DNA of 63,986 bases, the filler included, from Kipferlia bialata (Eukaryota), in assembly GCA_003568945.1 (NCBI GenBank). It is 3 parts of 3 records of this genome, joined end to end, with 100 filler letters (N's around TTAATTAATTAA, not from the genome) between each part and the next. Parts side by side here need not be neighbours in the genome. Positions count along the whole stretch, not along the records: positions 1 to 29,585 come from BDIP01000135.1; 2 more parts are not named here. One strand, given 5' to 3'. Below the pieces are notes generated by a model. That model was not told the DNA's origin. It did no database searches and saw only the letters and a program-made list of their open reading frames with translations. The translations under genes were made by a program, and so were the position numbers. Every line of letters starts with the position of its first letter. The first letter of the stretch is position 1. Below are positions 16,501 through 51,341 of the stretch, in pieces.

Positions 16501-18897
16501 GTCTTCTGCGTGCCTGTCACTAGCACTGACATCGAGTGTGTCACTCTCACACTCCCTACCACATATGGGGAAGAGGTATGTGTACCCACTCTTCTTCATA
16601 ATTCCCCCATTACCATGTTCTATCCTCCGGGCATCTCTCTCTCCCCCCCCCCCCGCCCCGATGTCAATTCAGCATATCTCGGGTGGGTAAATAGTGAATA
16701 CCTAATCGATGTGAGAGTAATATCAGAATTGTTGTGTTTAAATGTGTTCCAGTAGTCTATGTACGCCATATCTGCTGGAATCTCTCCCCCCTGTGTCTAA
16801 CTAGTATATAGTATTGGTACACTTATACACATATATATATTCTCTACCCAGACCATGGCCGCGGATAGTAGACATAGTAGATGTATAGTACAACGACTTC
16901 TACTTTTCCGTATACCTATATATTCTCTGCTAGTATATAGTATATAGTATAGTATTCCGATATATTCTCTACCCCCAGACCATGGCCGCCTCCCCAGCCG
17001 CTATCTCCCCCTCCTAATCGCTAAGAAGTGTATTACATAATATTCATTAGTACCTACTCTTATTCTCAGACTATGCAGGCTTCCCCAGCCGCCATCTCCC
17101 CCTCCTAATCCCTATGAAGTGTATTACTATCAATTCATAAGTGCCTACTCTAATTCTCAGACTATGCAGGCTTCCCCAGCTGCTATCTCCCCCTCCTTCC
17201 TCAGGGGTGATGAGTGTGTCACCCTCACAGTGGGCACACGTCTATACGTGACTAAGAAACGCTCTTTTGGCGGGGGAAGGCTCTTTGCGGCACACGAGAT
17301 GGACACGGGTGACTGGAAGGTGTGGCATATATGTACAGATGATCAGTTGAACAGTGTACTATAAAGGTCGAGTATGAAGAAGGTGATTCTGTTCATATCT
17401 GTGCCCAACTACAGGTAATGACCTGGTATAAGGGAGCGACCGACCCTGATCCATTCATTTGGGCCATTGGCGACTGCATATACTCGCTCGGTCTGGACAA
17501 GATCATGGGCCAACCGGGCCAGGCTGTGTTTAAGAAGTATGACACAGGTTCACGTGTGTGGACTGCGCTTGATCTTCCAGAGTATGTGGGTAGGCTTATG
17601 GGGACGCTCCAGGGGCCCAGTTCACGTCTGGTGACCGTTGTGAATGACGCTGCATATGTCATGATTACACATGTGGTGGACACTCGCTCTTCTGATCCTG
17701 ACCTGAGTGAACAGAGTGGCATTAGGTATGGGATTGCAACTTGTAAAGAATGATTTCTCTATGTGTGTTGACCTTGTTTGGGTAAATAGTGGCATCATTT
17801 TGACTCAGAAATTATGTAATCACATTTTGTATCAAATTGACGTTGCTGATATCAGGGGCTTCTTCTGCTACTCTCCTGTCAGCGGATGGCTAGACTTGAC
17901 AGACACTGTTAGACACACACTCCTCCATAGTGTCAAGCCGCGTACCTTTGCACACCATAGTGTCGCGCATGTGAAGCAGATACACAGGGCACTGGTCTGT
18001 GGACAGTACATTGTGTATGTGAGACCTACACCTAGGTGAGGATGGTTGATTATGTCGCATACACATCTACACGTATATATATACTATTATATGTACCTAC
18101 ACAAGTACACATGCATATATGTCTGCGAGAGACACTCCTAGGGGAATGTGGACTATATGGGGCACCTCAAGTGTATATATTTACTTACAAGTGTATTTAT
18201 GTACTCAATTCATTTCTGACACATCAAATATTCCCTGTGTTATCATTAGTCTACTACATACATTGTCTTTCCCACGATGGGTGTCCTGTCTATGACACTG
18301 TCAGTTCAGAGTGGACAGTGGCTACCATACCTATACATGTGTATATATGTATATATAGTAATATCAATAGTTGCCTTAACCTCTATCCTTACCCTAGCTT
18401 CCCTGTCTATGACACTGTCAGTTCTGAGTGGACAGAGTGGAGTGCGTTGGACATGCATGGCACACAGTTCACACAAGTAGGGATATGTACTATACATTTG
18501 GGTACATATATAGTGTATACTGAGGTGGAGTAGTCTGGGTGTATAGGGGTGCCTATTCACTCAGGTTGACAATATAGTGTATACCATACTATATGTAGAC
18601 ATTCATATGGAGGGACTAAAACACAGTAGTGTATACTGCCTGTTATGCTTAAGATTGTTGCACATATTTCGTTCCCATGGGTAAAGAGGGAAACGGATAC
18701 TCGTTTAGTGTTCACTATGTTCATTCGTTGTCCTATTGGCAATCTAAATCTCACTCTAGGCTGGGGACGGTCGCATTTTCTACGCTCAGACACCCACTAA
18801 CCAGAGCACGAAGCAGAGCTTCTCTCTGGCTGAGGTTGAGCCCTCCCTGATATACCCACACCCAGACGTGAGATGGGCTCTGAAGCACAAGTTATAG
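16501..18897 (+). CDS. Kelch-like beta-propeller protein
   Basis: Exons include VTLTVGTRLYV, WAIGDCIYSLG..KKYDTGSRVWT, ALVCGQYIVYV and FPVYDTVSSEWTEW. C-terminus LIYPHPDVRWALKHKL, TAG at 18895-18897. Confidence 0.65.
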
Positions 18898-19344
18898 GCG
18901 CACTATGTATACTATGGGTACTCTATAGTATGGGTGGGTTATATAGTATACCCACACCCAGACATGAGATGGGCCCTGGAGCACAAGTTATAGACACCAA
19001 TATACCAAATATCTTTGCCTTTGATATGTGTTATCTGGAGCCTCCAGTCTGCAGCACTATACTTTGCACCAAGGTGTTACTCTTCCCACATCCAAACTAT
19101 GCATCTATTCTCTATCTCTATGTGACATAATGTCTATGTTCTACATTATTACTGTGTCTAGTCGGCTGGACATGGTTGCCACTGTGATTGGATGGAGAGA
19201 TTCCACATGATCAGCTATGTGGCCGGCCAAGCCCTGTCCACTCGTTGAGGGACAGAACTAATATGTGTGACAGTATACTGATAGGATATGCATGTTTCTC
19301 ACCCATGGGTCTCCTACGGCAAATACGTCAGTCCTCTCTCTTAC

Positions 19345-20940
19345 TTAGTACTTCCGTGGAAGCATCAGCGACACCAGAGGCAGAATGCCCCACCTGACTG
19401 TCATAAATACTATGAATGGATATATTACATAGACACAAACACAGATGCACGTATTTACAACGCTGTATGAGTATGTGACTATACTACATATGCTTAGATG
19501 AGAGTGACATACCTCCTACCGCAGTCCGGGTACACTAGACCCCTGTCTATGTAGCCAAGTCGGTGGGGACACGACCTACAGTTTAGCTACATAATGGTTC
19601 ACTTCTAACGCACAGTAATGTCTCCATTATGCAAGGTTTCTAATTCATTAGGACTATACCGTATAGTACCTCACAACCAATGCTGGCTGGAATACACCAT
19701 CGACAAATGGCACAGAAGGTGTCTTGGCCATCTCACCACTGATGGTGTCATAGAGGTAGGTCTCCTGGCCGCAATTTGTGCACATACTAGGGGTTAGAGA
19801 TGTATGCTTTCTGTGCATCTGTGTAAAATGAGAACCACGGTGTTTATAGTTGTAAGAGAATGCAAGACCTAGATATGGCCAAGAAGCTACAACTTAACCC
19901 TATATGTAATGTCCATATGTTTACAATACTGTCCATACTCAATACTGGTATTCAAAATTGTGATCATTACCTAGATATGGCCAAGAACTGCCCAACAAGA
20001 TGTCGTATATACACTCTATGTGTTTGTGCATAGTATATTGAGTGAGTGAGACAGTGTCTCCATAGTATTGTGTAAGAGGATTCTATACCTCGAGATGGCC
20101 AAGAACTGCCCCACAGGCACTGTTGTGAGACTCATCCGAATGGAGTAGGGCACCACTCGTTGTGCTGATACAGTCCAGCCAGTGGTGTCGTCAAAGCACA
20201 CGACGGAGCCTGAGTCAGACATGGAATATAGTACTACTATATTCCATACTATATTATATGGTAGTCAATACTTCCTGTAACTTACAGGATGCAAGTTATA
20301 TATCACTGTATACATTTGAGGCAATACTTGGAGTGAGGTAACCTGACTCATCCACCCCATATGCTCTCTCCCTAATCACAGCAAGAGAGAGACAGTACAT
20401 GCTATCAAGGGCAGGGGTGGGGATGTCCAGGCGGATCCACGGTGTCTGAGCACTCTCAGACTCTCTCCATATAGGCGTCTCTGGATCATACACCCATGTC
20501 TGTGGGGCCATGACCACCTCCTCACCCCTTGTATCAGATATCACAACATAGCACATCCCCTTGAGTGTGAAGTAGTATGTCTCTCTCACTGGCTTGTCCT
20601 GGATCAGGTTGGGATAGGGCCGTACGGGTGGATACACACTAGTATTAGGGGCTGGCTCTGGATATACAGTGTCCCAGTGGGGTACGTGTCCGAGAGGTGT
20701 GTACTCTAGGCTACCCATGTCAAGTGAGGCAAAGTGCTCTTCACCATAGAGGTAGAGAGTGCCATTCACATAGAAGGTACACTTCGGGTTGATTATGGTT
20801 GTTCCGGGTGGCGTGTTAGGGGTTAGGTGTACTACGGGTCCCAGGGTGTTGTGTGTGACTGAGCCATCCTCTAACAGTCTGTGCACACAGAGACTCTGCT
20901 GTGACACCAAGAGGCTCTGAGATGTCAGGTCAGTCAGCAC
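19345..20940 (-). CDS. Kelch-like beta-propeller protein (start upstream, unresolved)
   Basis: Exons include FYVNGTLYLYG, TWVYDPETPIW, VPVGQFLAISR, YLYDTISGEM and GLVYPDCGRRWG; TAA at 19345-19347. Convergent with, and similar to, the plus-strand kelch-like gene. Confidence 0.65.
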
Positions 20941-22621: not shown

Positions 22622-22700
22622 TTTTTATTTTTTTTTATTTTTTTATACCCCCCCCCCCCCCCCCCCATTGTCAACGTGTCATCTCCTGTCTTTGTCTAGG

Positions 22701-22736
<36 letters not shown>

Positions 22737-22794
22737 TTTCTCTCTGTCTCTCTGTCTATGTCTCTGTCTCTCTCTCTCTCTTACTATTGGGTTA

Positions 22795-22895
22795 TCAGCT
22801 GTGTTTGTCAGGGTACTCTCTCTCTCTCTCTCTCTTACCATTAGGTCCTCAGCTGTGTTTGTCAAGGGTGCACCCCCTAGGCATGAGGACAAGGG

Positions 22896-22938
<43 letters not shown>

Positions 22939-23394
22939 ATAAGTATACAGATATGTCTTACTATCAGATCTTCTGCTGTGTTTGTCAAGGGTGCACCCCC
23001 TAGGCATGAGGACAAGGGCCTTGGGGCACCCAATCTCTCTCTCTCCCTCTCCACATATATATAAGTACGTATTCTCACTATCAGATCTTCTGCTGTGTTT
23101 GTCAAGGGTGCACCCCCTAGACATGAGGACATTGGCCTCTCTCTCTCTCTCTCTCTACACAAATGAATGAATGTACATATACCTCTCACACTTAGGGCCT
23201 CAGCTGTCTTTGTCAAAGGGGCACCCCCCAGACATGAGGACAAGGGCCTGGGTGCACCCAATCCAAGGCAGATGGACATGTCAGTGCAGTTCATACGCTT
23301 TGTACGTGAATACTGTATATATACATATACATATATATTCCTCTATCTATACAACCCTAGGAACATGGACATGTCAGTCCAGTTCATACGCTTT
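22795..23394 (+). repeat. Exon-echo cluster: four acceptor-side partial copies and one donor-side partial copy of exon 23196-23301
   Basis: Copies of AG+(S/A)SAVFVKGAPPRHEDKG at ~22795, 22845, 22968 and 23085, each running into (CT)n. NPRNMDMSVQFIRF+GT at 23353. Confidence 0.95.
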
Positions 23395-23624
23395 GTACGT
23401 GAATACTCTCTTTCTCCTAAGTCTATATACTGTCCCCAATTCTCTCTCTCTGTGTCTAGGCATATACTGACCCTCAGATGCTTGTCCTGTTCATAGTTTA
23501 CCACCTCTCTCACTCTCTCTCTCACTCTCCCCCCCCCCTCTCTGTCTCTTTCTCTGTCTGTCTGTCTCTCTGTCTGTCTATGTCTCTCTTAACCCTCAGA
23601 TGCTAGTCCTGTTCATCGTGTACC

Positions 23625-23663
<39 letters not shown>

Positions 23664-26600
23664 AACTCCTCCTTGTGTGAGTATGAATATCGATACTTAC
23701 CCTCAGATGCTAGTCCTGTTCATCGTGTACCACCACTCCCCGCAGACAAAGATATGGAAGGTATATAGCAACCTTATACACGACAGATTCAAGTAGTATA
23801 TAATCATACAGAGTATAGATGTCCCTCTCCGTTACTCTCCGGTAACAAGTGTATATTCATTGTATTATATGTGTTCCACTATAGAAATGTTCTAACCCCC
23901 AGCGCACTGGTGACTGTTGGGACCACCTGCTGTATTATATATGTATTCATATATTCATACATATATACATGCGTATATATATATTCTATTTAACATAGAT
24001 AGATATACACATTGACTCCAGCGCACTGACGACTGTTGGGACTACCTGCCCTTCTACGGCACTACATTCTGGTGAGTCTCTCTCTATCTCACTCTCTCTC
24101 TACTATTCTGGTGAGTCTCACCGTCTTGTCCCCCTACGTTAGTTCTATTTGCTTCACAGTAACAGTAATTGGAAACAGTATGAAGACAATGACCTTTACA
24201 CCCAGGTATGCGTTCAAGGACGGCTGTCACATTGTGATTGAGGCATTCCTTCTGTTGACAGGGTACCTTCTGGTCCAGAGCAGCCTCCGCCGCAGACCCA
24301 CAGCTCTACCCATGTGTACACACTCACTCCGGTAGGATACATGTATAGTCATATACGCTGTATGATATACAATACTATAAGTGAATGAATTACATCCATA
24401 CCCTTTATTCACTTAAGTATATATTAATTAAATATATATTAATTAAGTATATATTCAATATAGTATGCAGAGCCACTGCACTACCCATGTACACCCACTC
24501 ACTGCGGTACAGTATATACCATATACACACATATAGTATGTAATCCTATGTGAAGTAGTAATCATTGATGTGCATACTGATAATAGTGGTACAAGTAATG
24601 GGCTTCGTAGCAATTCGTTTGTATTTCTTTCTCTTACCCCTATCTTTGTGACTCTTGAGCACTTCCCAGTCCATGACCAGATACTATGCGTACATATCTA
24701 TACATACAAGTATGCTATTCTAAATCTATTTCACTATTCAATTTGTTCCCTTACCCTAGCTATGTAGCCCTTGAGCACTCCCTGGTCTATGTGCAGAGAC
24801 TCTTTAGGCTGTGGCTGCTGGGATTCATAGTGCACCTGATGAGGTAAACTGACATTCCAGAGTCATTTCTGATACCGATACTGTAACTGAATGTAGTCAC
24901 GTTCGTATATGACACTATTTACAATGTATATATGAGGCTTAGAGTAAAAGTACTTTGTGGACCTATCTGATGACAGGAATGGAGATGACATCCTATCCTG
25001 GCAGTTCTGGGGTGCCATCGTTGGAGCAGATGTATATACATAGGATTCATAGTTACCACTTACTACTATAATGACTCACTCTAGAAATGGTGATGAGATC
25101 CTATCCTGGCAGTTCTGGGCTGCCATTGTAGGAGCAGATATATGTATTTGTATATATATGTATCATCATAGTATGGTGTATTATCGTCTCACTCTAGGAA
25201 TGGAGATGATATCCTGACCTGGCAGTTCTGGGGTGCCATTGTGGGTGCCGATACATCTATATATATATATGTATCATCTATGTATCATCATAGTATGGTG
25301 TACTTGCGTCTCACTCTAGAAATGGTGACGAGATATTGACCTGGCAGTTCTGGGGTGCCATCATTGGTGCCGATGTCACTGGCAGCAGGACATGGTACCT
25401 GGGGATGGATATGCTTAATACAATGGTACGATGCCATAGCAGCAACAGTACTATATACATATATGTAGTAGTTATATATATGTAGTAGTTATATATATAC
25501 ACATGTGTTGGTGCCGATGTCACTGGCAGTAGGACGTGGTATCTGGGCATGGACATGCTCAATACGATGGTGAGTATATATATATATATATATATATATA
25601 GTAGTTGTATTTGTTATATGATGCATATATATATGATGTCATCAGTAGCAGAACATGGTACCTTGGGATGGACATGCTCAACACTATGGTACGATGTCAT
25701 ATTATGTAGTTCTTAGGAGACTGACATTGTGTTACTGGATTTACAGCATAATACGAGGACATGGACGATAATACTAATTATAATGATGTACTATTTTCCT
25801 GTCATTTATCTCACTGGTCCCCTCCCTGTCTTAACCTCATGCTAGGCCAATCTGCCTTTGATGCTCACTCTGGCAAGGCGTATAGGACCAGGTATTTGCT
25901 GTTGGGGCATTGGGCAGTAACATACCTATCCCTATATATCAATATATATGTGTGTGATGCATAAGGAGATGTTTTTGTGTGTGTGTATTCATACAACAAT
26001 GTCACAAGGGGAGAGAGACAGACTAACTGTGCAGGCAAGGCTAAGGACGGTTACCTCCGCCCAGTATCTCTGTGGCGCTACCTACCCCTTGCCCTACCTG
26101 CACTGTTTCTTGAAGTGGCTGCAGCGTGGTTCTATGTGAAACCCAAGGGAACACTGCCATACAAGGTACTCATTGACATACTCTATATAGGTGTGTAGAC
26201 TATACCCCTTGCCCTACCGGCACTGTGTGTGGAGATGATCACTGCTTGGGTGTATGTCAAGCCTAGAGGGATACTACCATATAAGGTAACTATGTATAGG
26301 ATATGTGGTATATAGATCATATGTATACTATACCTGCACTGTGTGTGGAGATGGGTGTGGCATGGGTATACGTGAGACCTAGAGGAACACTACCGTACAA
26401 GGTACTTGAATTACTCAACAGTATATATATATATATGGGGGGGGGGTCCTACCTGCACTGTGTGTGGAGATGGCCACTGCTTGGGTATATGTCAGACCGA
26501 GAGGAATACTACCCTATAAGGTATTACTAGTTGGCATACCATATGCATAAGTACACTCTACCTGCACTGTGTGGAGATGGGTGTAGCGTGGGTATAAATC

Positions 26601-29099
26601 AAGCCTAGAGGGATACTACCATATAAGGTAACAATATAGAGAGTAATGTATATACTATACATATACATATACATATATATATGTGTGTGCACCCTACCTG
26701 CACTGTGTGTGGAGATGGCCACTGCTTGGGTATATGTGAGACCCAAGGGTATACTACCATATAAGGTACCTCTTGCCCCTCTATATATGCAAACTATACA
26801 CGCACTGTGTGTGGAGATGGGTGTAGCATGGGTATATGTCAGACCAAAGGGTATACTGCCGTACAAGGTACGTATATTGTAAAGTACTTGTACTATATGA
26901 ATATGTATATGCCCTACCTGCACTGTGTGTGGAGATGGCCACTGCTTGGGTATATGTCAAGCCTAGAGGGAACACTGCCTTACAAGGTGACTCAATTTCT
27001 CTTATTATCTTACTACACCCACCAAGGTCAGTATTACTTACAAATTGACTCAATACATCTAGTATTGCTACTACAGAGAACATTTAAGTATCGTGCACTG
27101 ACTATTAGGTCCCTTACAAGCACTTCCTTTCCCTTGGTCTGGTCGTCATAATCAACAAACTTACAATATATACATTAAAAACATATACATTGTATATGTA
27201 ACTAGTACTTGTATATTCTAATTCTTAGGTCCCCTACAAGCACCTCTTCTCCTTTGGCCTTGGGGGTGCCATGGGGGCATACAATATATACATATATACA
27301 TATATATATATATACATATATATGTCATCTATATATATATACTAGTACATAACCTTCAGGTCCCCTACAAGCACCTCTTCTCCTTCGGTCTGGGTGGAGC
27401 CATGGGTGCATACAGGCACTACAACACAGTGGCAAGTAAGGCAGAGAGAGAGAAAGCGCAAGTGGTAGAGAGTGTGCCTGAGGATTGCAATACCACCCTT
27501 AACCCGACACCATCTGTCCTTCGGTGTCTGTGGGACACACTCATGTGCATAGTCTGGGTATCAGTGCTAGTCTCTATACCCTTCCTAGCATACACTGAGC
27601 GCACTAACGGTACATCAGTGCCATACCTGGTGTCTCTACTAGGGGTGGGCCCAGTGTGTGCCATACTCTATCTAGTGCTCCTGCACCTGTTCCTCCACAC
27701 TAGGCACCTGCAGCCCATGCGGTATGCACTGTCACTCTCACAGTGGGTGGCCAAGGTAACATTTCTCTCTCTCTCTCTCTACATCCTCTCTCATCCACCG
27801 TACCATATACAGCTGTATATATATATCTGTCTACACTCATGTTCCTCACAGTGGGTGGCCAAGGTATCATACCTTTCTCATTCTCTCTACACCCCCTTTC
27901 ACCCTCTTTCTAGTTCTTCCGCGTTGTATTTCCCTCTCCACCTTGCCTCTCTCGCTACATCCCTATTCCCAAGGTCGCCGCGTTGTCGTTCCCTCTGTAC
28001 CTTGTGTACCTTTCTTTCTCTCTCTCTCTCTCTCTCTATCTACACCCTTACTATTAGGTTGCCGCTCTCTCTTTCCCTCTGTACCTTGTGCACTGGGAGC
28101 TACCCCTTGCTGACCCTGGCATCGATAGTGACACTGGCATACAGTGGAGACCACTGCTTGATGTATCCATAGTATTAGGTATGTATATGTATGCATGTGT
28201 ATTCTTATAGAGAGAGAGGGAGTGAGAGAGACTTTCTGAGGGACACTGACATACAGTGACCACTTTTGGAGTATCCGTTGTGCTAGGTATATATGTATAT
28301 ATGAATGTGTGTTTATATATTGGCAGATAGGGAAAGGGAGTGACCCTGGCGTCCAGTGGAGGCCCTTACTCGATATCTCAATAGTCCTAGGTAGGTTTCA
28401 ACTAATATGAATGATAGGAAGTGAGTATTGTCTGTGTTGAACCCCCAACTGCAGGCGGACTCGCCCTAGAGATACGCTTTGTCACCTTCTTCTGGGGTCT
28501 GATTAATCTAAATACTCATAATGTGGCATTGTTTTCCATTACGGTATAGTATAATATTATTATACATTGCTAATGATAGGTGGACTCGCCCTTGAGATAC
28601 GCTTTGTCACCTTCTTCTGGGGTCTGCTCAGCCGGACACTTGGACACCACATCAAATTGAAGGTAATATTAGGTCACGTATCAGTATATATGAAATATAT
28701 TTTGAATGTATATGTATTGGTCGGCCGCACGCTTGGTCACCACATCAAACTGAAGGTAGAATTAGGTTAAGTATCAGTGTATATGTAGTATATATCGGTA
28801 GTATATTCTATCGGTACCAGTTTAATGAACAATTATTCTTGTTTAGGTAACAATATATACGTGTACTATAACGTCCCACAATGTATAGTATACATACTAT
28901 ATACACTTATTGGTCAGCCGCACTCTTGGACACCTTATTAAGTTTAAGGTATGAGATTGATGATATTAGTCGACTATTTAGCATCACTCACTTGTTCTCT
29001 TCAGTGAAACTATGTAGTAATCGCTTCTGATAACAGGTCAATATGCCGGAGTATTGCCCTCCAGAGACCGCGAAACCATCCAAGCACAGTGTCGTCTAA
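23196..29099 (+). CDS. Acyltransferase-3 (OafA/Acyl_transf_3-like) membrane protein; 5' end in or before the gap
   Basis: Spliced reading gives QFIRFMLVLFIVYHHS (R..H helix 1), IVIEAFLLLTGYLL (F.LSG motif), QRLFRLW, TWYLGMDM, KHLFSFGLGGAMG and LSFPLYLVHW (SY.LYL.H motif). Several hydrophobic helices; TAA at 29097-29099. Confidence 0.8.
24977..25688 (+). repeat. Exon-echo cluster: three acceptor-side and two donor-side partial copies around exon 25320-25425
   Basis: NGD.IL.WQFW.AI.GAD copies at 24977, 25085 and 25198. DV..SRTWYLGMDMLNTM+GT copies at 25507 and 25635. Confidence 0.95.
26202..26986 (+). repeat. Stack of seven donor-side exon echoes (PALCVEM..AWVYV.P.G.LPYK+GT)
   Basis: Seven ~70-85 nt copies of the 3' half of exon 26035-26165, each ending AAG|GT and separated by dissimilar AT-rich spacers. 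Confidence 0.95.
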
Positions 29100-29171
29100 C
29101 TCCATGAGAGTCAGAGTCTCATACTATAATACTATTGAGGATCTTGACAGAGAATGGAATCGTTCTGTTCT

Positions 29172-29685: not shown

Positions 29686-29743
<58 letters not shown>

Positions 29744-29754
29744 CTGACTCCCAG

Positions 29755-30930
29755 GTAGGGAGGGTCTTATTGACACTGCCGTTAAGACTGCCACCTCTGG
29801 ATACTTCCAGAGATGTGTGACTAAGGTATGCATCATCTATCCATATATAGTTGTATATATACGTATATTTATTAGTACATACTTACCCCCAGGGCATTGA
29901 GTCTGCCGTTGTTGCCTATGACGGCTCTATATATAGTTATATATATATATACGTATGTCAATTAGATTACATATTTACCCCCAGGGCATTGAGTCTGCTG
30001 TCGTTGCCTATGACGGCTCTGTCCGTAACGACGATGGCTCTATCCTACAGTTCCTGTACGGAGGAGACGGCCTGGATGTGTCCAAGACATCCCTCCTCCA
30101 CGACATGCGCTTTGCAGCTGAGAACTACCAGGGCCTCATTGCCAGGTATAGATATATATATATTATTCTTTATATATATAATGTGTTTATGCTTATGCTA
30201 TGTGTATACTTACCCCCAGGCACATGCCCCCTGCCCACCAGATCGGTCTCCTCAACGGCAAGCTGAGCAAGGACACCACTCTGCCCCCCCAGGTACTCTT
30301 TCTCTCTCTCTCTCTCTCTCGTCATCTATGGTTGATTAATATGTGACTCACCCCCAGTACACTAACAGCCCCTACACCTGCATGGGAGCCGTGTCCGAGG
30401 CATACACCGCCAAGGTAATCTCTCTCTCTCTCTCTGCTTGTGTATGCCTATTAGTATATACATATTTGTCTCTAAATACACCTCACCCCTCAGGTCACTG
30501 AGTTCATGTCCAAGGCCTCCATCAAGAAGGATGCCGATACCGGTATCATCGCCAAGAAGGTATATAACCCTATATTTATCATTTATATATCAGTATATCA
30601 TCTGATATTTATCATTTATATATGTATATGTGTGTATATATATAGTGTTATGTACTGACTCCCCAGGGCCAGGAGCACAAGTTCGGCAGGCCCACTCTGT
30701 CCAAGAACGAGTTCAAGGCTCTCGCAAACCTGAGGTAACACAGCTGCATGTCACACAACATGTTCTCTCAATTCTCCTAACATGCTCTATAGTCTTATCC
30801 CCCAGGTACATGCGTGCCCTTGTCGAGCCCGGTGAGTCTGTGGGTGTGGTTGCCGCCCAGGGTATCGGAGAGCCCTCCACCCAGATGACACTGTACGTAT
30901 ATTTGTATTATAAGTATATACATATCCCTA

Positions 30931-30975
<45 letters not shown>

Positions 30976-31793
30976 ACCCCCTTATCTCAGGAACACATTC
31001 CACCTTGCCGGTCACGGTGCCGCCAATGTCACTCTGGGTATCCCTAGGCTCAGAGAGATTGTCATGACTGCCACCCGTGCCCCCAAGAGCCCCCTCATGA
31101 CACTGTACCCTCCTGTCGGGTGCAAGAACCCCATCCAGGTACAGTGTGTATATATATGTGTGTGCCTCAGTATGTGTGATGTAATAGTGCCTAACTGTCA
31201 GGTCCTGACCAAGCTGGGTGCCGCCCTTCGCCGTGTGCCCCTGGCCTCTCTCGTGTCCAGGTACAGTATAGTATAGCATAGGCCATGTAGCCCCCAACAT
31301 ATCTATGTACAGTATGCATTGTACCTTACCGCCAGGATCGGCATTGAGGAGAACGTCGTCATGGCTGGAAGGCAGTACAAGATCAGGCTCACCATCCCAG
31401 GTACACACTTATCTCTCTCTCTCTCTCGCTCTCTCTCTATAGAGACTATGAAATAGTCTGGTTCCCTTCTACATTTACCTCCAGGCTTTGTCGACAAGCT
31501 GCGTGACTTCGGTTGCACCGTTGACCAGGTAGGAGATGTCTGAACTATTATATAATTATTATATACATATATACTATACTCCATTGATACTCTCTTGATA
31601 CATCTGGGTCAGGAACTGTTCCTCTAGTCTTTGTCATATCTGTGTAATGATACAACTTCTGACCCCCAGGTCAGGAAGTGTGTCCTTGGCGCCTTCTGTG
31701 TCAAGCTTGACCAGATCATATCCAGGTCTCTCCACAAGGCCAGGTCCTCCGCCCTAGACGGCGCCATCACTGCAGGTAACCACAACCATTACC

Positions 31794-31835
<42 letters not shown>

Positions 31836-33374
31836 ATCTCTCTCTCTCTCTCTCTCTCCCTCTACACCCTTAACATCCAGGTGTGCAGATGCCGGATGTC
31901 TCTGCCGAGGCCGAGGCTGACTCTGGCGATGAGGAGCCAGTGACTGAGGAGACACCCGCCAAGAAGGCTGCTGTGGAGGACGACGAGGTACCTACAGTAA
32001 CACTCCATACTGTCTGGACTGTCTACACGTTGCTGTGTGTTGTTGTGACATGTTGTACTTACTCTCAGGAGGCCGAGGAGGAGGAGGACGAGGAGGAGGA
32101 GACTGGCTTCAAGGCCGAGGCCCTCGAGCTCAACGCAGAGGACATCATCCACCAGTGGTGCTCACACCTCTCCCAGGTACATATATACATACAGACATCT
32201 CTCGATAGATACTAACATGTATTGGTATAGTTTGTCTTACCCCAGGACCTCAAGATCCAGTTGGCCAGGGTCCAGAAGCACACATTCGTGTCTTCCATCT
32301 CATTCTCGTACGTCTGGATGTTACTCTCTTCTTCGAGATATACTAGTATACATGTAGTGGATGTATGTGCTTATCTGACCCTTCAGTATGGCTGAGAACG
32401 GTGTCGACGCCATCGCTTCTGTCTCCGCCATCCTCGGACTCAACGACAAGGTAACCGCGTAGTTTCCTATCATGTATCGCGTAAGTATGTAGACCTCTCA
32501 CTTTCAGGTCCTCATGGCTGCCAACGCTGAGGCTGCCGCAAGGCACGTGCTCGTCAAGGAGGTCCCAGGTATACATATGTGTTCCGATAAATATGTGTAT
32601 AATTAGTATATGTGGAATGTATATGAAGTATACTTATATCCAGGCATCTCTGCCTGTTACATGATGGAGAGGCCAGGCGAGGAGGCCTGCATGCAGACAT
32701 CTGGGTGCAACCTGGCTGCTGTCTTCTCCCTCCCAGGGGACCTGCTCGACCACAACAGGTATGCACATATATATGTGTATACTACTATCTATATACTACC
32801 AGCTGTATATATTCGTGATCTCTGACTCCCTAGGATCCAGACCAACCACGTTGCCGAGGTGCTGCGTGTGTTTGGAGCAGAGGCCGCATTCCAGGTACAT
32901 ACAGTGCATATGTTATTAATATTAATTATAGTGTGTAGTAGTGGTAATATACACCATCTCACCGCCAGGCCATTGTCAACGAGGTCTCTGGCGTGTTCGG
33001 TGTCTATGGTATCGACGTGAACGAGAGGCACCTCTCCCTCATCGCTGACACCATGACACACAACGGAGCTTACCAGGTATCAGTATACTATCTCTCACAC
33101 ACACACTCTACCAGGTATACTTACAACACTTTCTCTCTCTCTTGCGCCTTGTTTCTCCCTCTCTCACCCCCAGGGTATGTCCAGGCTCTCCATGCCCACC
33201 GCCACTCTCTCCCCCCTCCTCCGTGCATCCTTTGAGACATCCACCAAGTTCCTCTTCAACGCTGCTCTCTTCGGCGAGGTTGATAGCATGACGTCCCCCG
33301 CTGCTTCCATTGCATTCGGTGCACTTGCCAAGCACGGAACCGGCAAGTTCGACCTCCTGCAGAAGCTCGGATAG
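29755..33374 (+). CDS. RPA1: DNA-directed RNA polymerase I largest subunit, C-terminal part
   Basis: Bridge helix [32 protein letters not shown], Pol I-type trigger loop [31 protein letters not shown], an acidic expander-like insert, [26 protein letters not shown] and GTGKFDLL. No CTD repeats; TAG at 33372-33374. Confidence 0.95.
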
Positions 33375-33691: not shown

Positions 33692-36600
33692 CTATGCATA
33701 GTCCTCTGCAAACTCACTGAATGCATTGACGTGTGTGGTGACTGCCTTGGCCAATGCTTCACAGCCCAGGCAGGAGAGATGGTCCCTGGGATAAGAAGGG
33801 TTACGGTACAACAATACTATAAGGAATAGTATCGCACTGTCAGTCCAAGTAAGAAAGCATGTATATATGTGAAATAATACAAATATGACTGTACCTCAGT
33901 CTCTTGAGTACCCCATGTTGGAACCTTCTGGTCTCGCCCTCCTTATCTCTGGGGGTGAGACAATAAATAGAATCACTATATGTTTATGTATATTCGAATA
34001 CATGGGTGTGAGGGTATGGTAAACTGTTGTAAACAGTTGAAGTGCCACAGAGCCATGCTAGGCCAAGGTCGCATGTGGTGTGTTACAATATATGAAAGAA
34101 CACACTCTGGAATACATCAATAGGCCTATGCCTACCTCGGTCTATACCCCATCTCTGCCCCCTTGAGTCTCTGGGCAATCTCGGCAGCGAGGTCTGGGTG
34201 GTCAGATTGACATAGCGAGAGTCAGATTGATATATGTAGTAATAAATCTACTCAAAAATACAAATGCTCTGTCTACCTTCTCATGTATACGTGTGACTGT
34301 GAATGACATCAATACATATTTATACCTTTGGGACCAGTCCCTGTGGGTATGGGTACTCTCCCTGTCAGCACACCCACACATAAACATAGGGAGATAAATG
34401 TATATACATTTATATATACTATATATATATACTAATACATATACCTTTATGGTCTGTCCCAGCTGGTATGGGCACCCCCTCTCTCTCTCTCTCTGTCTCT
34501 CTCTCTATACATATATACTAATACACACATATATATATAATGAACATCATACCTTTATGGCCTGTCCCAGCTGGTGTGGGCACCCTCTCGGTCTGTCTCT
34601 CTCTCTCTCTATATATATACTATATTTCAGTTATGTATATGTATATATATGATACATACCTATATGATCTGTCCCAGCTGGTATGGGCACCCTCACTCTG
34701 TCTCTCTCTCTCTCTCTATATATATATACTAATACACACAAATACTATATAATATTACCCTTATGGTCTGTCCCAGCTGGTATGGGCACCCTCTCTCTCT
34801 CTCTCTCTCTCACTATNNNNNNNNNNNNNNNNNNNNNNNNNNNNNNNNNNNNNNNNNNNNNNNNNNNNNNNNNNNNNNNNNNNNNNNNNNNNNNNNNNNN
34901 NNATATATACCTATATGGTCTGTCCCAGCTGGTATGGGCACCCTCTCTCTCTCTCTCATTCTCTCTCTCTCTCTCTCTATATATATACTTTATGTCAGTT
35001 ATATATATATATATATGATACACACCCTTGTGGTCACTCCCAGCTGGTATGGGCACCCTCTCTGTCAGTATGCACAGTATAGTCTCTGTCACAATGTCAT
35101 CACTGGTGTCGGCCATCACTACACCACGAAGGGTGTCTAGCTCAGACCTAAGGGTGAGCAAGTATACATAGCATGTAGAGTAAATACATATAGTGTATGA
35201 CTGTGTACATACATATATATATTATATATATATATATATACTATAATAGTAATTAGTGTCTGCCATCACCACATCCCCGAGTGTGTCTAGCTCTGACCTG
35301 GTATAAGAATGAGGTATGTATATATATGTATATATAATGAATTCACTCTTCTATTCTTCTGCACACTATTCTAAACACTCTATACCTTGACACTTGTGCC
35401 AGGTCGTGTCAAATGTGACTGCCCAGAGTATAATAGTCTCTATAATACATAATACATATATAATACATGCACTATTGTATACCCAATTATATACCCTATT
35501 CTACACACACCTTGTCACGTGTGCCAGGTCGTGTCTGATGTGACTGGCCAGGGTCACTGCCAGCCTCTGGGCAAGTTCATACCCGCCCATCACACACCTG
35601 GGATAAGGTATATATACATGTGTATATACTATTCATATCTGTAGAATACCCTTCTATTACGTACCCGCTCTCCATTTCCTCTTCCTCAGGGGGGGTCATG
35701 GACTCATACGCAGCAAAGACCTAGGATGAGTGGATGTCACATAGAGAGAGAGCAAACACCTAGATACACATAGGTATATATAGAAATATACACTATTATC
35801 TATCTGGTGGCGCCATGGCCTCATACGCAGCAAAGACCTGAGTTAGACAAATAGACAGATAGATACATATGCAGATGCAGATACACGTATAATTGTATAT
35901 ATACAGAGAGAGAGAGATTTTCACTATTCTCTATCAGGGGAGTCCATGGCCTCACCTAGTGTGGGTGTATGTCTTATATGCAAAGACCTAGTGTGAGGGT
36001 ATGTCATAGCTATACTTCACAAGTGAGTACCCACTATCTACTATAGTATACTACGGACACTCCTGCCCCCATACTAACACTCAACATCGTAAACATGAAG
36101 TGTGAGTGGATTTCATATACCTATACTTGATAAGGAGTACCCACTACACCATATACTATCTACATCATTATACTTAGAACACACCTGATTGAGTAAGAAT
36201 GGCCCCAGCTCCCCATACTCCCTCCCATACTCGATGTACGTGAGGTTGATAGCTGGGAAGCGTGTCCTCAGTCTATCCACAGTGGCCCTGAGACTAGGGT
36301 CCACTGAGGGGTCTAGGCCTAATACATAGTGCTGCTGCGTAGCTGTGGTGCTATTGAGCCTATCAGAGTTAGTCACGGTAGGTCAAGAGAGTCAATGATA
36401 GTCAATATACCTGTCAAAGAGAGAGAGGAAGTGAGGGTCCTCGAGTGTTCCGTTGCATCCTACAAACACTAGGGACTGCATACAATCACTAGTGGAGTCT
36501 GATGAATGTCCAGAGAGTAGACATGGGGATGTGTGTCCGGGTCTGGCTCTCTTGGGGGGGACGAAGGTGGAGAGGAACTGGGCGTGGCCTAGCAGTAAGA

Positions 36601-39600
36601 GTAAGGGAATGTATAGACATATTATTCGTACCCATAGTGATGCCCAATATGGGTAATAGAGGTGTCTAGGAACTAAGTATGGCCTAAGGGTGAGTGCAGT
36701 AATACTACGATTGTACGAAACAGTGCAGAAATGCCACAGGAACACACCTGAGCAGTAGCTGCGGTATGTGAGTGGGTATGTCACACCACTTGTGACACCG
36801 TGTAGGTGCACTACATCCATGAGGGCACACACACCAGACAGGTCAGACCCTACATCCGAAGGGAGACGTGTGGATGACTTGAGGACTGTCTCAACGACTC
36901 TGTCATAGTTGACGGTGGTGCAGACGGCCTAAGGTTAAACAAGTACTGATACACATTATACATATACAGCATACATAGTATATGGTATACACTACATATA
37001 CTATCTCCACCACTCTGTCATAGTTGACGGTGGTGCAGGCGGCCTGGGGTTAGATAAAGAAACAATAGGACTATATTATACTACACTAAATCAATATACT
37101 ATATCATACTTAACTACCATATCAAACAATCAGATTGTAATAGAGAATCAATACATCACTGTCCATATGCACATGTCAATCAATAACACATACCTTGGGG
37201 AATGATGCCATTGCATTAATGGCACTGCGCAGTGTGATGCATGCATTGCTGACAGGGATCTTGAGCCTCATGCGGTCGACAACGGACTCGAGGTACCTGG
37301 AATCAGTATAGTAGTAATGACAGTATTGTAGTAATGTTGTAAACAGAATGCATTAATTCTATAATGGGAGATACTCGGGGTGTGTATATAGTACACACCA
37401 CGTGTCACTGAGAATCCCCGTGGCCATGGCCATCTCCACCTATATGTAGTAATATATACACAGTATATATCCTTCTGGTATCTATATATATGTATATATA
37501 TATATATATATATGTTTGCTAATACCTTGTGTCACTGAGCATCCCCGTGGCCATGGCCATCTCCACCACCCGGGACCTGGCATGCACAACCTAAGGTGAG
37601 TATACAGTACATAATGCATATACGATATTAAGTAGATAGTTTATATAATAGGGTACTATATATATACAGTGTACTAATATCTCCACCACCCTGGACCTGG
37701 CATCCACAACCTGGGGGGAGTACACATATGTATATGTAGTAACAACACATTGGGATGAGTATACATATGTATCAGAGACACAACATATAGACACGCTAGA
37801 CATATGTTTATACCTCCTTGTCCATCATGTCCAGTGTGCATGGCAGGGGCAGGGGGCCAGGTCTGGTATCCAAGGCAGAGAGGAGAAGCCTGCTATCAGT
37901 ACCCAGTAACTAAGCACAGGTTATGGTATGTATATCGACAGGAGGAGTCTGGTAATTAGAGACAACTAGGTAGATAGGTGTCATAATAATACATGGAGGT
38001 AAAGTACACCATCAGCCCCGGTTCCCACCGCCCAGTACTCTGGGGTGTTATCATGCCTTAATACCAACAATATATATATATACAAATATATATACATAGA
38101 ACGAGGGTATCTATACTCATAGTATACCTAGCCTCTGTCCCTATTGCCCTGTACTCAGGTATGGTGCCATCCCTCAATGATATACTATATATATATATAT
38201 ATTCTTTTTACTATATACTATCAATACTCATTACTTAGCCTCTGTCCCCACTGTCCTGTACTCAGGTGTTGTGCCATTTCTCAATACCCTCTCTCATTCT
38301 ATATATATACACTATATATAGATATACTATATACCTAGCCTCTGCGCCCACTGCCCTGTACTCAGGTGTTGTGCCAGCTGGTATCCTGGTGAAGTCACCC
38401 AGTCTGTCCTTGACCTGGGATGAGTATGGTACATATGTACACACATGCACACACATATACATGAATATATAAAACTATCTGTGTCGTGGTAGAGTCACCC
38501 AGTCTGTCCTTGACCTGGGGGTCAGTGAAGGCATATATGGACATATATCAATGTATAATACACAGGCATATATGACTGCGCCAAAAATTATACAACCAGA
38601 CCCATAGAGTTGCGGTACCTGATACAGCATGTAGTCATCCTTGCTGTCCAGGGCCAGTATCATTTAGCAGATAGTGGATATAGTGTATATAGTATATTGT
38701 ATATATATATTCGTATCCATACCTGGTATAGCATGTAGTCATCCTTGCTGTCCAGGGCCAGTATCAGGGCCACCACAGTCTGTCTGTAGGCTAGGAGGAC
38801 CTAGAAAGTGAGATATACTATGAATTCTATACAAATAATTCAACTACATACTATACACATTCTGTATACTTTACACAGTCTGTCTATAGGCTAGGAGGAC
38901 CTGGAGGGTGAGTATAGCTCACACATCTTGGTAGAGTATCCTCAACAATAATGAATAGTTACATACATTGCCAGTAACTGTTATATACTCAATAATAGTA
39001 AAAACATTGCATCCATCTGTGTCCCGGTTGAAAACATTGAATATACAGCAGTTGACGAACTACTCTAATTTGTGTAGGATATTATGGTGTATTACCAGTG
39101 ACACTGCGTCCATCTGTGTCCCGTCCACTGTCTCAGTGACAGCTGCCTCCAGAATGGACTTGGCAACCTATGGGGTTAGGATAGGTATATAACCCAGATA
39201 TATAGACACACATATATATACATACACTATAGTAGTACATGTAATAGCTGCCTCCAGCATGGACTTTGACACCTAAGGTCAGACAAATAGATGTATATTA
39301 CAGTAGGTATATATCCACAGAAAGAGAGAGAGAGAGGTAATATATGACAGAGCTGCCTCCAACATGGACTTGGCAACCTAGAGGGTTAGAATAGAGATAC
39401 ATATATGGACTTGGCGACCTGGGGGGTAAGATAAGGAAAGATAGATCGGTAGAGCGGTGTATAGATATGCATATTTATATATATATCTCACAGCTGCCTC
39501 CAGCATGGACTTGGCGACCTAGTGGGTTAGATAGGGATAGACATATATATATGGATAGACAGAAATGCTGATACATATATCAACGGTGTTTGCCTCCCGC

Positions 39601-40754
39601 ATGGACTTGGCAACCTACAGGGTTAGAATAGGAATATAGATAGGCATATGTAGAGAGATAGTAATATGGATTATGTTAGATATGTTAGTATGGTCTCTGT
39701 CTCCAGCATGTACTTGGCAACCTGTGGTTAGAAGATTATATATATACATATTTATATATGCTATACTGAAAAAGTAACCTGGTAGTATGGTTAATATATA
39801 CTAAACCTACATCACACACCTTCAAGCACTTTGAGAATAGGAGTGGCCGAGTAGTAGGAACCAGGTCGGTGCTGTACCTGAAGTGAGTATAGCTCTATCA
39901 AAGACAACACAGCGTTGTCCAAGAATTCTACTTGACACATGCATCAACGTACTGCCTGTATGCGTTGTATATGGCAAAGCATGCATTGGCTAATGCTGTG
40001 ACCCTGGCAGTGGCCTGAAGAGTGCCCTCCTGGGGCATCTCTAGGGCTGACATTAGTATATACATACAAAAGAGGCCAATATATACAGAAGTGTATTTAT
40101 ATAGTGGATATGATATCAGTAAGTGATGGTGGCCTGAAAAGTGCCCTCATGTGTAATGGCCAGGGCTGGGTGAGTACGTATTCACAGATATCCAGATCAT
40201 ACAAGTATACTGTATATAGGATACCTAATACCCCCTTGATGTGGTTGAGTGCACTCCATGCCTCCATCAGGGGAAGTATATATATTTCGATATACTTATA
40301 TATGTATGTTTATATATGAAGTATATATATTTCGATATACTTATATATGTATGTTTATATATGTATATATATATATGCACGTATATGATATACTGAGTGT
40401 ATATGTATACATACTATACATGTATATACCTAATACGCCCTTCATGTGGTTGAGTGCACTCCATGCCTCCATCAGGGGTGGGGACTCCTCGGCAAGGGAG
40501 TACGTGATCTGGGGTGAGAGAGGGAAGATGGTAACACTGACAGATGGCAGATACACACACACCCTCTCTCGCTTTCCCTATATCTCTATACATATATGTA
40601 TATACACATACCCTGTTGCATGCCCCCTCCATCAGCTGTGCCCAGGGCAGGGTGTTCTCTCTCACTCACTCACTCTCTCTCTCTATACATATATATATAC
40701 GTATACATACTCTGTTGCATGCCCCCTCCATCAGCTGTGCCCAGGGCAGGGTGT

Positions 40755-40800
<46 letters not shown>

Positions 40801-41435
40801 GTATACCCTGTTACATGCCCCCTCCATCAGCTGTGCCCAGGGCAGGGTGTTCTCTCTCTATCTCTCTATATATATAGACATATATACATATACATATGAC
40901 ACACCCTGTTACATGCCCCCTCCATCAGCTGTGCCCAGGGCAGGGTGTTCTCACACAGGGCAGATGGAACGCCAGCTCCTAACGTAAGTGACCTACCAAG
41001 ATACAGTGAATAATACATGGTATAGAGTATACCGGGCAGAGGGGACACCGGCGCCTAGGGTTAGTCAATGCATGTTCTCTACACCATATTCATAGAGTAT
41101 ATAGAGCATGTATACTATTCAAAGTATGTATATATAGAGTATGTGTATATATACTATTTAGAGTGAGTATCACACAGGGCACAGGGGACACCACTGGAAC
41201 AGAATACATAGGCGTGACATAGCAAGGCACACTTAGTGCTAGCACATGGTCATGTCTGAATGCATCCATATAGTATATGTAGTATAGTATAGAGTACATA
41301 GTAAATAGTATATATATGAACACCTAGTAGTGCCATAGTATATATATACATACCTAGCACCAGCACATGGTCTGTGAGTGCGTGTCTGAATGCATCCAGC
41401 TCAGGGGGCACTTGGACCTCAGTGGGAAGGGCATC
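33692..41435 (-). CDS. SIR2-like (SIR2_2/FAM118-type) protein with a large insertion and a C-terminal extension; 5' end not found
   Basis: Exons splice to HVLVLGAGVPSALCENTLPWAQL ... CTTVNYDRVVE ... VVHLHGV ... YRSY ... SLVFVGCNGTLEDPHFLSLF ... HYVL ... YIEYGREYGELGPFL. Phases checked from 36928 to the TAG at 33692-33694. Confidence 0.8.
34323..34945 (-). repeat. Stack of about six donor-side echoes (ERVPIPAG.DHK+GT) in the SIR2-like gene
   Basis: Repeated plus-strand cccagctggtatgggcaccctct units with (CT)n/(TA)n spacers; the most distal copy is the most diverged (GRVPIPTGTGPK). Confidence 0.9.
39245..39724 (-). repeat. Stack of six acceptor-side echoes (AG+VAKSMLEAA) upstream of exon ~39094-39167
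   Basis: Six copies of plus-strand atggacttggc(a/g)acct-type sequence, each with its own acceptor and a different upstream intron tail. Confidence 0.92.
40607..40853 (-). repeat. Three donor-side echoes (ENTLPWAQLMEGACNR) of the SIR2 GAG-motif exon
   Basis: Three copies of plus-strand catgccccctccatcagctgtgcccagggcagggtgttctc, each running into (CT)n. Confidence 0.92.
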
Positions 41436-41462
41436 CTTAGAAGTGAGAAGGGTGAGAGAGAT

Positions 41463-41495
<33 letters not shown>

Positions 41496-41841
41496 TCGGG
41501 GTCTCAGTGAAAAGGGCATCCTGGTATTAGGACAGTGAGATTATTGGCATTTAGAGGGGGGTAGAGGAGGAGTGGAGAAAGGGAGAGATAGAGACTAGAC
41601 AAGAATAACAATACACTTAGCACTGCAAAATAGAAGAGATAGAAGGGGGGGGGGGGGGGGGGGGGTCTGAAAAAGGGAGAAAAAAAAACAATCCCAGTGT
41701 ATATACTCAATCTTGTCATCATGATATACATCCAATACATTTGCCTGTCATATTTCTATACATATGTGCTCACCACAGAGACTACCTGCAGCGTGAATGT
41801 ATCCATCTATGTGGATGTATATGTATATATGCTCACCACAG

Positions 41842-46425: not shown

Positions 46426-46464
<39 letters not shown>

Positions 46465-47157: not shown

Positions 47158-47176
47158 TGCTCACAGCCTCCGTATG

Positions 47177-51296: not shown

Positions 51297-51341
<45 letters not shown>

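What the first reader, a model, noticed from the sequence alone, without database searches (positions are those of the whole stretch)
22968..28010. Echo copies differ from the live exon almost only at synonymous sites
Seen: echo 25510-25569 vs exon end 25366-25425 has 7 differences, all synonymous (AGC/AGT, ACA/ACG, TAC/TAT, GGG/GGC, GAT/GAC, CTT/CTC, ACA/ACG). Echo 22968-23034 vs exon 23196 has 8 synonymous codon changes and 1 replacement. Echo ~27974 vs exon 28058 encodes the same VAALSFPLYLV with 5 nucleotide differences. In the SIR2-like gene, GGC GCC GGT GTC CCC (~41055) vs GGA GCT GGC GTT CCA (~40978) both read GAGVP. Inference: dead intronic duplicates should mutate at all codon positions, so these diverged under coding selection. 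They are either recently captured from strongly diverged alleles, homeologues or paralogues, or they are still used.
Basis: partly seen in the sequence, partly recalled or inferred. Interest (0 to 1): 0.88.

Follow-up and report, generated by a model that had tools for sequence, protein, structure and literature searches.

The report
Introns stacked with old allele fragments
In the protist Kipferlia bialata many introns hold stacked partial copies of the neighbouring exon that differ from it mostly at silent sites, likely because they are leftover pieces of strongly diverged alleles left behind by faulty recombination repair, which would make these introns an archive of past alleles.

Summary
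The DNA is from Kipferlia bialata (100% hits so named). I found 95 echoes (53 families) in 7 of 9 modelled genes. Each is a head-to-tail unit of about 107 nt: part of the adjacent exon, one splice site and about 70 nt of intron. Echo-versus-live dN/dS is 0.16-0.18; simulated dead duplicates give 0.28-0.67. Echo-versus-echo is also low (0.18-0.20). 'Almost only synonymous' overstates it: about 40% of differences are replacements. Echo splice sites are as strong as live ones but differ in sequence, and 82 of 89 intron flanks are unrelated. A DNA contig spans echoes and live exon together; the one RNA-type contig skips them. Best reading (0.55): echoes are pieces of diverged, formerly live alleles, left by recombination that has homology only in exons. 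The donor alleles were not found. No paper describing this turned up in ten searches. The scan earlier noted junction duplicates in a sea-urchin gene; that note shows no silent-site signal.

The parts
23196..29099 (+). Host gene, acyltransferase-3-like membrane protein (database protein KIPB_001043, P0002). Live exons 23196-23301, 23707-23760, 24022-24071, 24206-24331, 24760-24843, 25320-25425, 25846-25891, 26035-26165, 27360-27755, 28058-28178, 28580-28662, 29037-29099; its 5' end lies beyond the N gap
   Evidence: 100% hit; protein mapped to exons; open frame; first three exons joined in an RNA-type contig. The family label is a lead from ESM Atlas features only; Pfam found nothing
22845..23138 (+). 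Three upstream-type echoes (3' splice site + exon start) of exon 23196: 22845-22898, 22968-23035, 23085-23138, each ending in a (CT)n run
   Evidence: DNA contigs carry 22949-23500 unchanged
23352..23394 (+). Downstream-type echo (exon end + 5' splice site) of exon 23196-23301; its first 13 intron bases are identical to the live donor's, yet the transcript uses the live donor
23478..23930 (+). Upstream-type echoes of exon 23707 (23478-23505, 23600-23627) and of exon 24022 (23903-23930)
   Evidence: skipped in the RNA-type contig
24467..24685 (+). Downstream echo of exon 24206-24331 (24467-24506) and a decayed upstream echo of exon 24760 without its AG (24644-24685)
24977..25688 (+). Echoes around live exon 25320-25425: three upstream (24977-25033, 25085-25139, 25198-25252) and two downstream (25508-25569, 25635-25688)
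26203..26986 (+). Array of seven downstream echoes of exon 26035-26165 (starts 26203, 26331, 26448, 26558, 26692, 26797, 26910), each with its own donor site and flank; one has a stop and a 2-nt gap, another a 1-nt insertion; two four-fold columns in this gene's arrays show all four bases
27109..28006 (+). Upstream echoes of exon 27360 (27109-27142, 27229-27283), its downstream echo (27845-27863) and the upstream echo of exon 28058 (27974-28006)
28239..28948 (+). Downstream echoes of exon 28058-28178 (28239-28286, 28339-28390), upstream echo of exon 28580 (28455-28501) and its downstream echoes (28718-28755, 28911-28948)
33692..41924 (-). SIR2-like-domain gene, 21 modelled exons, 33 echoes in 14 of 20 introns, including the GAGVP echo 41054-41034 and arrays at 39721-39246 and 34948-34326
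   Evidence: 655-codon open frame; SIR2_2 hit weak, E 0.017, below cut-off; echoes
52739..59112 (+). Tubulin-folding cofactor D gene, 16 echoes in 9 of 21 introns
   Evidence: P0005 100%, Pfam ARM_TBCD, echoes
29757..33374 (+). RNA polymerase I largest subunit (3' part); one echo (29893-29928) in 20 introns
48504..52514 (-). Unnamed gene, 9 echoes in 5 of 13 introns; the array 50678-50365 has near-identical flanks (same-chromosome amplification)
   Evidence: model from open frame only
16501..20940 (.). Two unnamed genes (16501-18890 +, 19513-20940 -) with 4 and 2 echoes
   Evidence: models from open frame only
134..10424 (+). Echo-free comparison gene (0 of 39 introns): DNA polymerase theta-like helicase-polymerase
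   Evidence: model; DNA_pol_A above cut-off, POLQ_helical below cut-off
60215..62842 (+). Echo-free comparison gene (0 of 11 introns): RhoGAP-like
   Evidence: (weak hit)

Best explanation
Each echo is a head-to-tail duplicate of one exon-intron junction whose two copies likely come from different, strongly diverged alleles of the same gene rather than from one chromosome. Shown: the geometry, the coding-type divergence, intact but different splice sites, unrelated flanks, and skipping in one transcript. Inferred mechanism: alleles are alignable only in exons. A break in an exon is repaired on the other allele, synthesis runs across the splice site about 70 nt into a non-matching intron, normal re-annealing fails, and the end is joined by microhomology (Pol theta-type) back into the resident exon. 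The incoming junction becomes live and the resident half-exon with its splice site is pushed into the intron. Once one echo exists, misaligned exchange between it and another allele's live exon would add or renew units at the same cut point, so arrays grow from the exon side and the outermost unit is oldest. Units that lack the second splice site are tolerated because they are spliced out.
For: Only adjacent exons are echoed: 50 of 284 adjacent pairs vs 3 of 3027 and 15 of 4544 sampled others, those mostly low-complexity. Polarity is fixed: 0 opposite-polarity hits of 101, no real inverted copy of 284, no interleaving in 11 of 11 two-type introns. dN/dS is 0.16 echo-live and 0.18-0.20 echo-echo, against nulls of at least 0.28 and 0.56 (0.22 under the kindest echo-echo null). 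Live exon and echoes are exchangeable: distance 0.154 vs 0.152. Echo splice sites score like live ones (donor 4.9 vs 5.1, acceptor 6.2 vs 5.8; other intronic GT/AG -0.5/-2.8), yet 0 of 38 acceptors match the live one over 14 nt and 82 of 89 flanks are no more alike than chance. Decay since capture is small: 2 stops vs 8-12 simulated, about 0.02 changes per site (upper bound 0.07) against dS 0.43; GC3 0.61 vs 0.625 live, introns about 0.39. Farthest echo is the most divergent (p 0.003), with no stepwise similarity along arrays (p 0.31). Cut points cluster within arrays (SD 3 vs 11 nt). Silent divergence is higher at the splice-site end in 24 vs 9 families. The repair kit fits: the PMC8516963 supplement lists for K. 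bialata PolQ, Spo11 and four Dmc1 models, and no Rad51A, Rad54 or Ku70.
Against: No donor allele was seen. DNA contigs over 22949-23500 list no other letters, so no diverged second haplotype shows there (contigs drop variants). Two metagenome scans found no Kipferlia-like locus. It needs allelic silent divergence near 0.43 (0.24 without the main gene), very high against the 14% overall distance reported for a hypervariable fungus (PMC4209137 abstract). Junction microhomology could not be shown: 22 of 90 junctions abut a dinucleotide run vs 16.6% background. In some arrays all echoes share residues that the live exon lacks. Seven echoes have flanks related to the live flank, and at least one array is a same-chromosome amplification. 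K. bialata keeps Msh2, Msh3 and Rad10, which by established knowledge should reject or trim such joints. Replacements are not clearly conservative (p 0.09). One window only.
Confidence: 0.55

Rival explanations
1. Echoes are old same-chromosome duplicates whose exon part is repeatedly refreshed by short gene-conversion tracts from live exons of diverged alleles; the flanks simply drifted apart with age.
For: Tight cut-point clustering. Mosaic patterns: 45 of 55 site pairs are incompatible in the 7-echo array. 12 echoes identical to the live exon beside unrelated flanks, several of them short. Echo 25198 has a near-identical flank yet 9 exon differences.
Against: Conversion limited to exon homology should let the echo's branch point and splice consensus decay or make them identical to the live site; they are strong and different. 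It still needs the unseen diverse alleles.
Confidence: 0.15
2. Echoes are still used, as alternative half-exons in minor transcripts or as stepping stones for recursive splicing, and are kept by selection.
For: Strong splice sites. dN/dS stays low among echo pairs with related flanks: 18 silent vs 6 replacement in 14 pairs, several related only by low complexity. Exons with upstream echoes start with GT more often: 10 of 21 vs 16 of 72, p 0.03.
Against: No partner splice site at the cut end: 3 of 38 and 2 of 52, at or below background. Echoes cover a median 35% of the exon. The single RNA-type contig laid on 22700-23930 joins the live exons with no echo letters (depth 11, so minor forms are invisible). 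The database proteins omit them. Recursive use would not conserve amino acids.
Confidence: 0.12
3. Donors are paralogues or two or three homeologues of an old polyploid or hybrid.
For: Echoes in some arrays share residues against the live exon. No whole genome was on hand to exclude other copies.
Against: The only paralogue found is 42% identical and carries the echo residue in 4 of 33 replacement states vs the live residue in 7. Echoes occur in TBCD and RNA polymerase I, usually single-copy genes (recalled). Two four-fold columns hold all four bases. Echoes always sit beside their own exon.
Confidence: 0.08
4. Ordinary dead tandem duplicates decaying neutrally, with the silent excess coming from the live copy alone.
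For: Head-to-tail geometry is that of any tandem duplication; a few units have related flanks.
Against: Rejected in all 360 simulations (minimum dN/dS 0.28 vs 0.16 observed); echo-echo pairs should be near 0.85 and are 0.18-0.20; the signal is frame-specific; it holds with one echo per family, 0.10-0.19, and with database-framed exons only, 0.14.
Confidence: 0.03
5. Assembly artefact: alleles or strains strung together through microsatellites.
For: Microsatellite-rich, gapped short-read scaffold; only 1.2 kb was checked, and against contigs, possibly from the same sample as the window.
Against: One 411-nt DNA contig (depth 429) runs unchanged over 23092-23500 through the end of one echo, the live exon, a second echo and the start of a third; another spans an echo-to-echo junction. 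Most junctions have no long repeat for an assembler to jump on, and up to 8 versions of one exon end would be needed.
Confidence: 0.03

Closest known systems
Tandem duplications from failed synthesis-dependent strand annealing finished by polymerase theta (C. elegans helq-1; PMC8654963, passages read)
   Same: Direct head-to-tail repeats from about 100 bp upward; proposed route is extension on a template, failed annealing, then end joining; K. bialata has PolQ and lacks Ku.
   Different: There the template is the identical sister copy and the median is about 1 kb in a mutant. Here the copies differ like alleles under coding selection, units are about 107 nt, always span one splice site, and fill about 38% of modelled intron sequence (9779 of 25439 nt).
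Internal gene duplication / intron gain by tandem genomic duplication (PMC3443670, passages read; Gao and Lynch 2009 seen only as a reference entry)
   Same: Short intragenic tandem duplications absorbed by splicing.
   Different: No new intron is made; an existing intron grows by about 116 nt per echo (r 0.93), and the copies do not decay like neutral duplicates.
Exon-confined recombination in a hypervariable species (Schizophyllum commune; PMC4209137, abstract read)
   Same: Recombination between very different alleles is confined to conserved exons, the premise of the model.
   Different: The abstract reports crossovers, not leftover junction copies; hypervariability of Kipferlia is inferred, not measured.
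Mutually exclusive duplicated exons (recalled)
   Same: Tandem exon copies diverged under purifying selection.
   Different: Echoes are partial, carry one splice site only, and are skipped in the transcript checked.
Silent donor cassettes for gene conversion (Neisseria pilS, Borrelia vls, chicken immunoglobulin pseudogenes; recalled)
   Same: Partial, unexpressed, frame-conserving copies near an expressed gene.
   Different: Found in housekeeping genes, inside introns, with splice sites, and conserving rather than diversifying the protein.

Membership tests
Failed-SDSA / Pol theta tandem duplication | Direct, head-to-tail, local copies | tested here: met
Failed-SDSA / Pol theta tandem duplication | Copies identical at birth (sister template), then neutral decay | tested here: not met
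   dN/dS 0.16 vs null 0.28 or more; unrelated flanks
Failed-SDSA / Pol theta tandem duplication | Microhomology or templated insertions at the junction | tested here: inconclusive
   donor intron unknown; 22 of 90 junctions at dinucleotide runs vs 16.6% background
Failed-SDSA / Pol theta tandem duplication | Pol theta encoded | tested here: met
   helicase-polymerase gene at 134-10424; listed for the species in the PMC8516963 supplement
Failed-SDSA / Pol theta tandem duplication | Formation depends on Pol theta | not testable with these tools
   needs genetics
Intron gain by tandem genomic duplication | Duplicated sites act as donor and acceptor of a new intron | tested here: not met
   no partner site at cut ends; old junctions used
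Mutually exclusive duplicated exons | Whole exon with both splice sites | tested here: not met
   median 35%, maximum 74% of exon; one site only
Mutually exclusive duplicated exons | Each copy found in mRNA | tested here: inconclusive
   absent from the one RNA-type contig, depth 11, 1.2 kb
Silent gene-conversion cassettes | Partial copies that keep the reading frame | tested here: met
   2-3 stops in 1066-1147 codons, 4 frameshift gaps in 95 echoes
Silent gene-conversion cassettes | Restricted to a diversified surface or immune gene | tested here: not met
   also in TBCD and RNA polymerase I
Junction-spanning minisatellite (VNTR) | Units alike over exon part and flank | tested here: not met
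   82 of 89 flanks unrelated to live; 68 of 82 echo pairs unrelated; the array at 50365-50678 is an exception

The most novel reading that the evidence does not exclude
Kipferlia is a sexually recombining, extremely diverse eukaryote whose alleles share only exons. Its Dmc1-only, Ku-less repair routinely swaps in a foreign exon-intron junction and shelves the old one in the intron, so a single genome stores an ordered stack of past alleles, and much of its intron length is made this way. Its spliceosome must also pick the right site among several equally strong, exon-flanked competitors about 100 nt apart.
Probability: 0.4. Interest if true: 0.92.

Novelty: new variant of a known kind. Interest (0 to 1): 0.8.

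Why it matters
If true, one genome would report population diversity, outcrossing and the order of past recombination events in a protist group where sex has not been observed (recalled). It would show a route of intron growth driven by recombination between diverged alleles, and give thousands of natural footprints of repair without Rad51A and Ku. Whatever their origin, strong decoy splice sites with real exon sequence next to them make a natural test of how a short-intron spliceosome chooses sites. In practice, echoes mislead gene prediction: my own model picked them up as exons.

Tried and rejected
No whole genome was held, so no genome-wide count or donor search was possible. The run search listed two runs, neither on record as RNA; the RNA label of X2 is the tool's guess, though its contig joins exons. 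Reads could be laid on 22700-23930 only; parts without cover there were not interpreted. Metagenome scans: nothing for P0002; 24 loci at 35-54% identity for the RNA polymerase I exon, none Kipferlia-like, not studied further. Rfam: 0 matches in 22600-42500. Pfam: no family for P0002 or P0004. The idea that echoes end preferentially in microsatellites is weak. The idea that the live exon is a systematic outlier is rejected (p 0.79-0.81). Nearest echo least divergent: not significant (p 0.39). A positional, triplet-register bias instead of selection is rejected by the degeneracy table. Look-ups of earlier scan notes by place, by words and by sequence gave nothing for this genome.

Full report
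Setting. The window is eukaryotic and intron-rich. Two exons matched database proteins at 100%, named by their sources as Kipferlia bialata: KIPB_001043 for the gene in the finding and the RNA polymerase I largest subunit next to it. No whole genome was held. I modelled nine genes (143 introns). Frames are fixed by database proteins for three genes (the first exon of the main gene lies mostly upstream of the annotated start and is framed by open reading through the RNA-type contig) and by uninterrupted reading frames for the rest. A candidate gene at about 11200-15200 and short genes at 43400-47200 were not modelled; self-BLAST showed one near repeat in those stretches.

Observation. The four quoted examples are exact. 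Aligning every intron to its two neighbouring exons gave 95 echoes in 53 families; hits scoring under 24 (with a splice site) or under 34 (without) and overlaps were dropped (the output was partly cut). They occupy 41 of 143 introns, plus the stretch before the main gene's first exon: 30 in the main gene, 33 in the SIR2-like gene, 16 in TBCD, 9, 4 and 2 in three unnamed genes, 1 in RNA polymerase I, and none in the Pol theta-like (39 introns) and RhoGAP-like (11) genes. Only adjacent exons are echoed: 50 of 284 adjacent pairs, against 3 of 3027 non-adjacent pairs and 15 of 4544 sampled pairs from other genes, mostly low-complexity matches.

Selection signal. Differences at codon positions 1/2/3 are 87/61/280 after trimming the cut ends, 109/80/318 before; dS 0.43-0.46, dN 0.07-0.08, dN/dS 0.16-0.18, family bootstrap 0.11-0.24. 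So 'almost only synonymous' is too strong, since about 40% of differences are replacements, but the excess is real. A dead copy beside a live exon should give about 0.4-0.5; 360 simulations over six settings never fell below 0.28 and gave 8-12 stops on average against 2 seen, while two coding copies at dN/dS 0.15-0.2 reproduce the data. Echo-versus-echo pairs, where neither copy is live, give 0.18-0.20 against about 0.85 expected. The signal is frame-specific and follows degeneracy: rates 0.04-0.055 at non-degenerate sites, 0.26 at four-fold sites, and 52 silent vs 8 replacement changes at two-fold sites. It survives one echo per family (0.10-0.19), dropping the main gene (0.23) and using database-framed exons only (0.14). 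Replacements are not clearly conservative.

Anatomy. Upstream echoes are always a 3' splice site plus the exon start, downstream echoes always the exon end plus a 5' splice site (0 exceptions in 101 hits; no real inverted copy). That is the geometry of a head-to-tail duplication across one junction. Units are a median 107 nt (interquartile 93-120): 34 nt of exon and 70 nt of intron, close to a whole ordinary intron of 78 nt. Intron length rises by 116 nt per echo. 90 of 95 echoes keep GT or AG, which is partly a result of my thresholds; beyond the dinucleotide their sites score like live ones, yet none of 38 acceptors equals the live one over 14 nt and 82 of 89 flanks are no more alike than random introns. 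There is no partner splice site at the cut end. Live exon and echoes are equally distant from one another, the farthest echo is the most divergent, and neighbours in an array are not more alike. Cut points cluster within an array. Silent divergence is higher near the splice site; alignment-end bias may contribute.

Real DNA, skipped in RNA. On 22700-23930, one 411-nt DNA contig at depth 429 runs unchanged through the end of one echo, the live exon, a second echo and the start of a third; shared echo stretches show about double depth. One contig of run X2 (RNA by the tool's guess, depth 11) joins 23301 to 23707 and 23760 to the live next exon, passing four echoes, one of whose donors matches the live donor for 13 intron bases. 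This is one region, contigs rather than reads, and possibly the window's own sample.

Mechanism. The copies diverged while both coded for protein, each has its own working-quality splice site and private flank, and decay since is small (about 0.02 per site, upper bound 0.07). The simplest source is other alleles of the same gene. The steps of the best explanation (invasion in the exon, run-on into non-matching intron, failed annealing, microhomology joining, then unequal exchange at existing echoes) are inferred. The parts have precedent: duplications from failed annealing finished by Pol theta (PMC8654963, passages), exon-confined crossing-over in a hypervariable fungus (PMC4209137, abstract), and mismatch stabilisation by Dmc1 (PMC6719624, abstract). 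PMC8516963 (section 8, passages and supplement rows; one supplementary file unreadable) reports no Ku in metamonads and no Rad51A in fornicates, and lists PolQ, Spo11, Msh2, Msh3, Rad10 and four Dmc1 models for K. bialata.

Against it. No donor was seen: no second haplotype in the contigs laid, none in two metagenome scans. The implied allelic divergence is extreme. Microhomology is not shown. Some arrays are plainly same-chromosome amplifications, some show all echoes sharing residues against the live exon, and the GT-start enrichment leaves room for recursive splicing. The paralogue route fails for the one paralogue found but could not be tested genome-wide.

Novelty. The species' genome paper (PMC5874029; parts 1-3 of 6 read, whole main text searched for terms, supplements not seen) reports 124,912 introns and a diploid k-mer profile and has no occurrence of 'duplicat', 'allel' or 'heterozyg'. 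Ten literature searches (listings and abstract starts only, unless named above; PMC3443670 and PMC10711314 passages) found no description of allele-like junction copies stacked in introns; the library lacks most subscription papers. An earlier scan note describes junction duplicates in one sea-urchin gene, unchecked here. Verdict: a real, strong and unexplained pattern; a new variant of recombination-born tandem duplication; interest 0.8.

Noticed in passing
window 134-10424 (+): A 40-exon helicase plus family-A polymerase gene, Pol theta-like; GC-richer introns (0.48) and no echoes.
   Followed up: partly
whole window: Echo density differs sharply by gene. The two echo-free genes have intron GC 0.48-0.49, echo-rich ones 0.36-0.42, but RNA polymerase I has 0.38 and only one echo, so expression or constraint may matter too.
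   Followed up: partly
window 54619-54684 (+): An in-frame TBCD exon with a GC donor that the database protein P0005 omits; its echo at 54731-54767 has a GT donor and a 3-nt insertion.
   Followed up: partly
window 23192-23271 and the gap 22099-22621: The RNA-type contig extends 209 nt upstream, and the 30 letters shown read open in the same frame, so the annotated start of KIPB_001043 is probably too far downstream; silent-site echoes of this part support its being coding.
   Followed up: partly
window 56680-56702, 56990-57009, 57045-57060, 58220-58232, 58490-58500, 33108-33116, 49553-49600: Very short junction echoes (about 8-20 nt plus a donor site) below my score threshold, so the count of 95 is a lower bound.
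   Followed up: no
window 40273-40362: Exact 45-nt tandem repeat inside an intron, starting at an echo's cut end: a recent same-chromosome duplication or an assembly duplicate.
   Followed up: no
window 52932-53000 (+): An in-frame internal repeat within TBCD exon 2 (the segment SDSEALAKE occurs twice), retained in the database protein.
   Followed up: no
window 29586-29685 and 59242-59341: N gaps with a central 12-nt linker, marking joins between separate records; the window is not one continuous scaffold.
   Followed up: no
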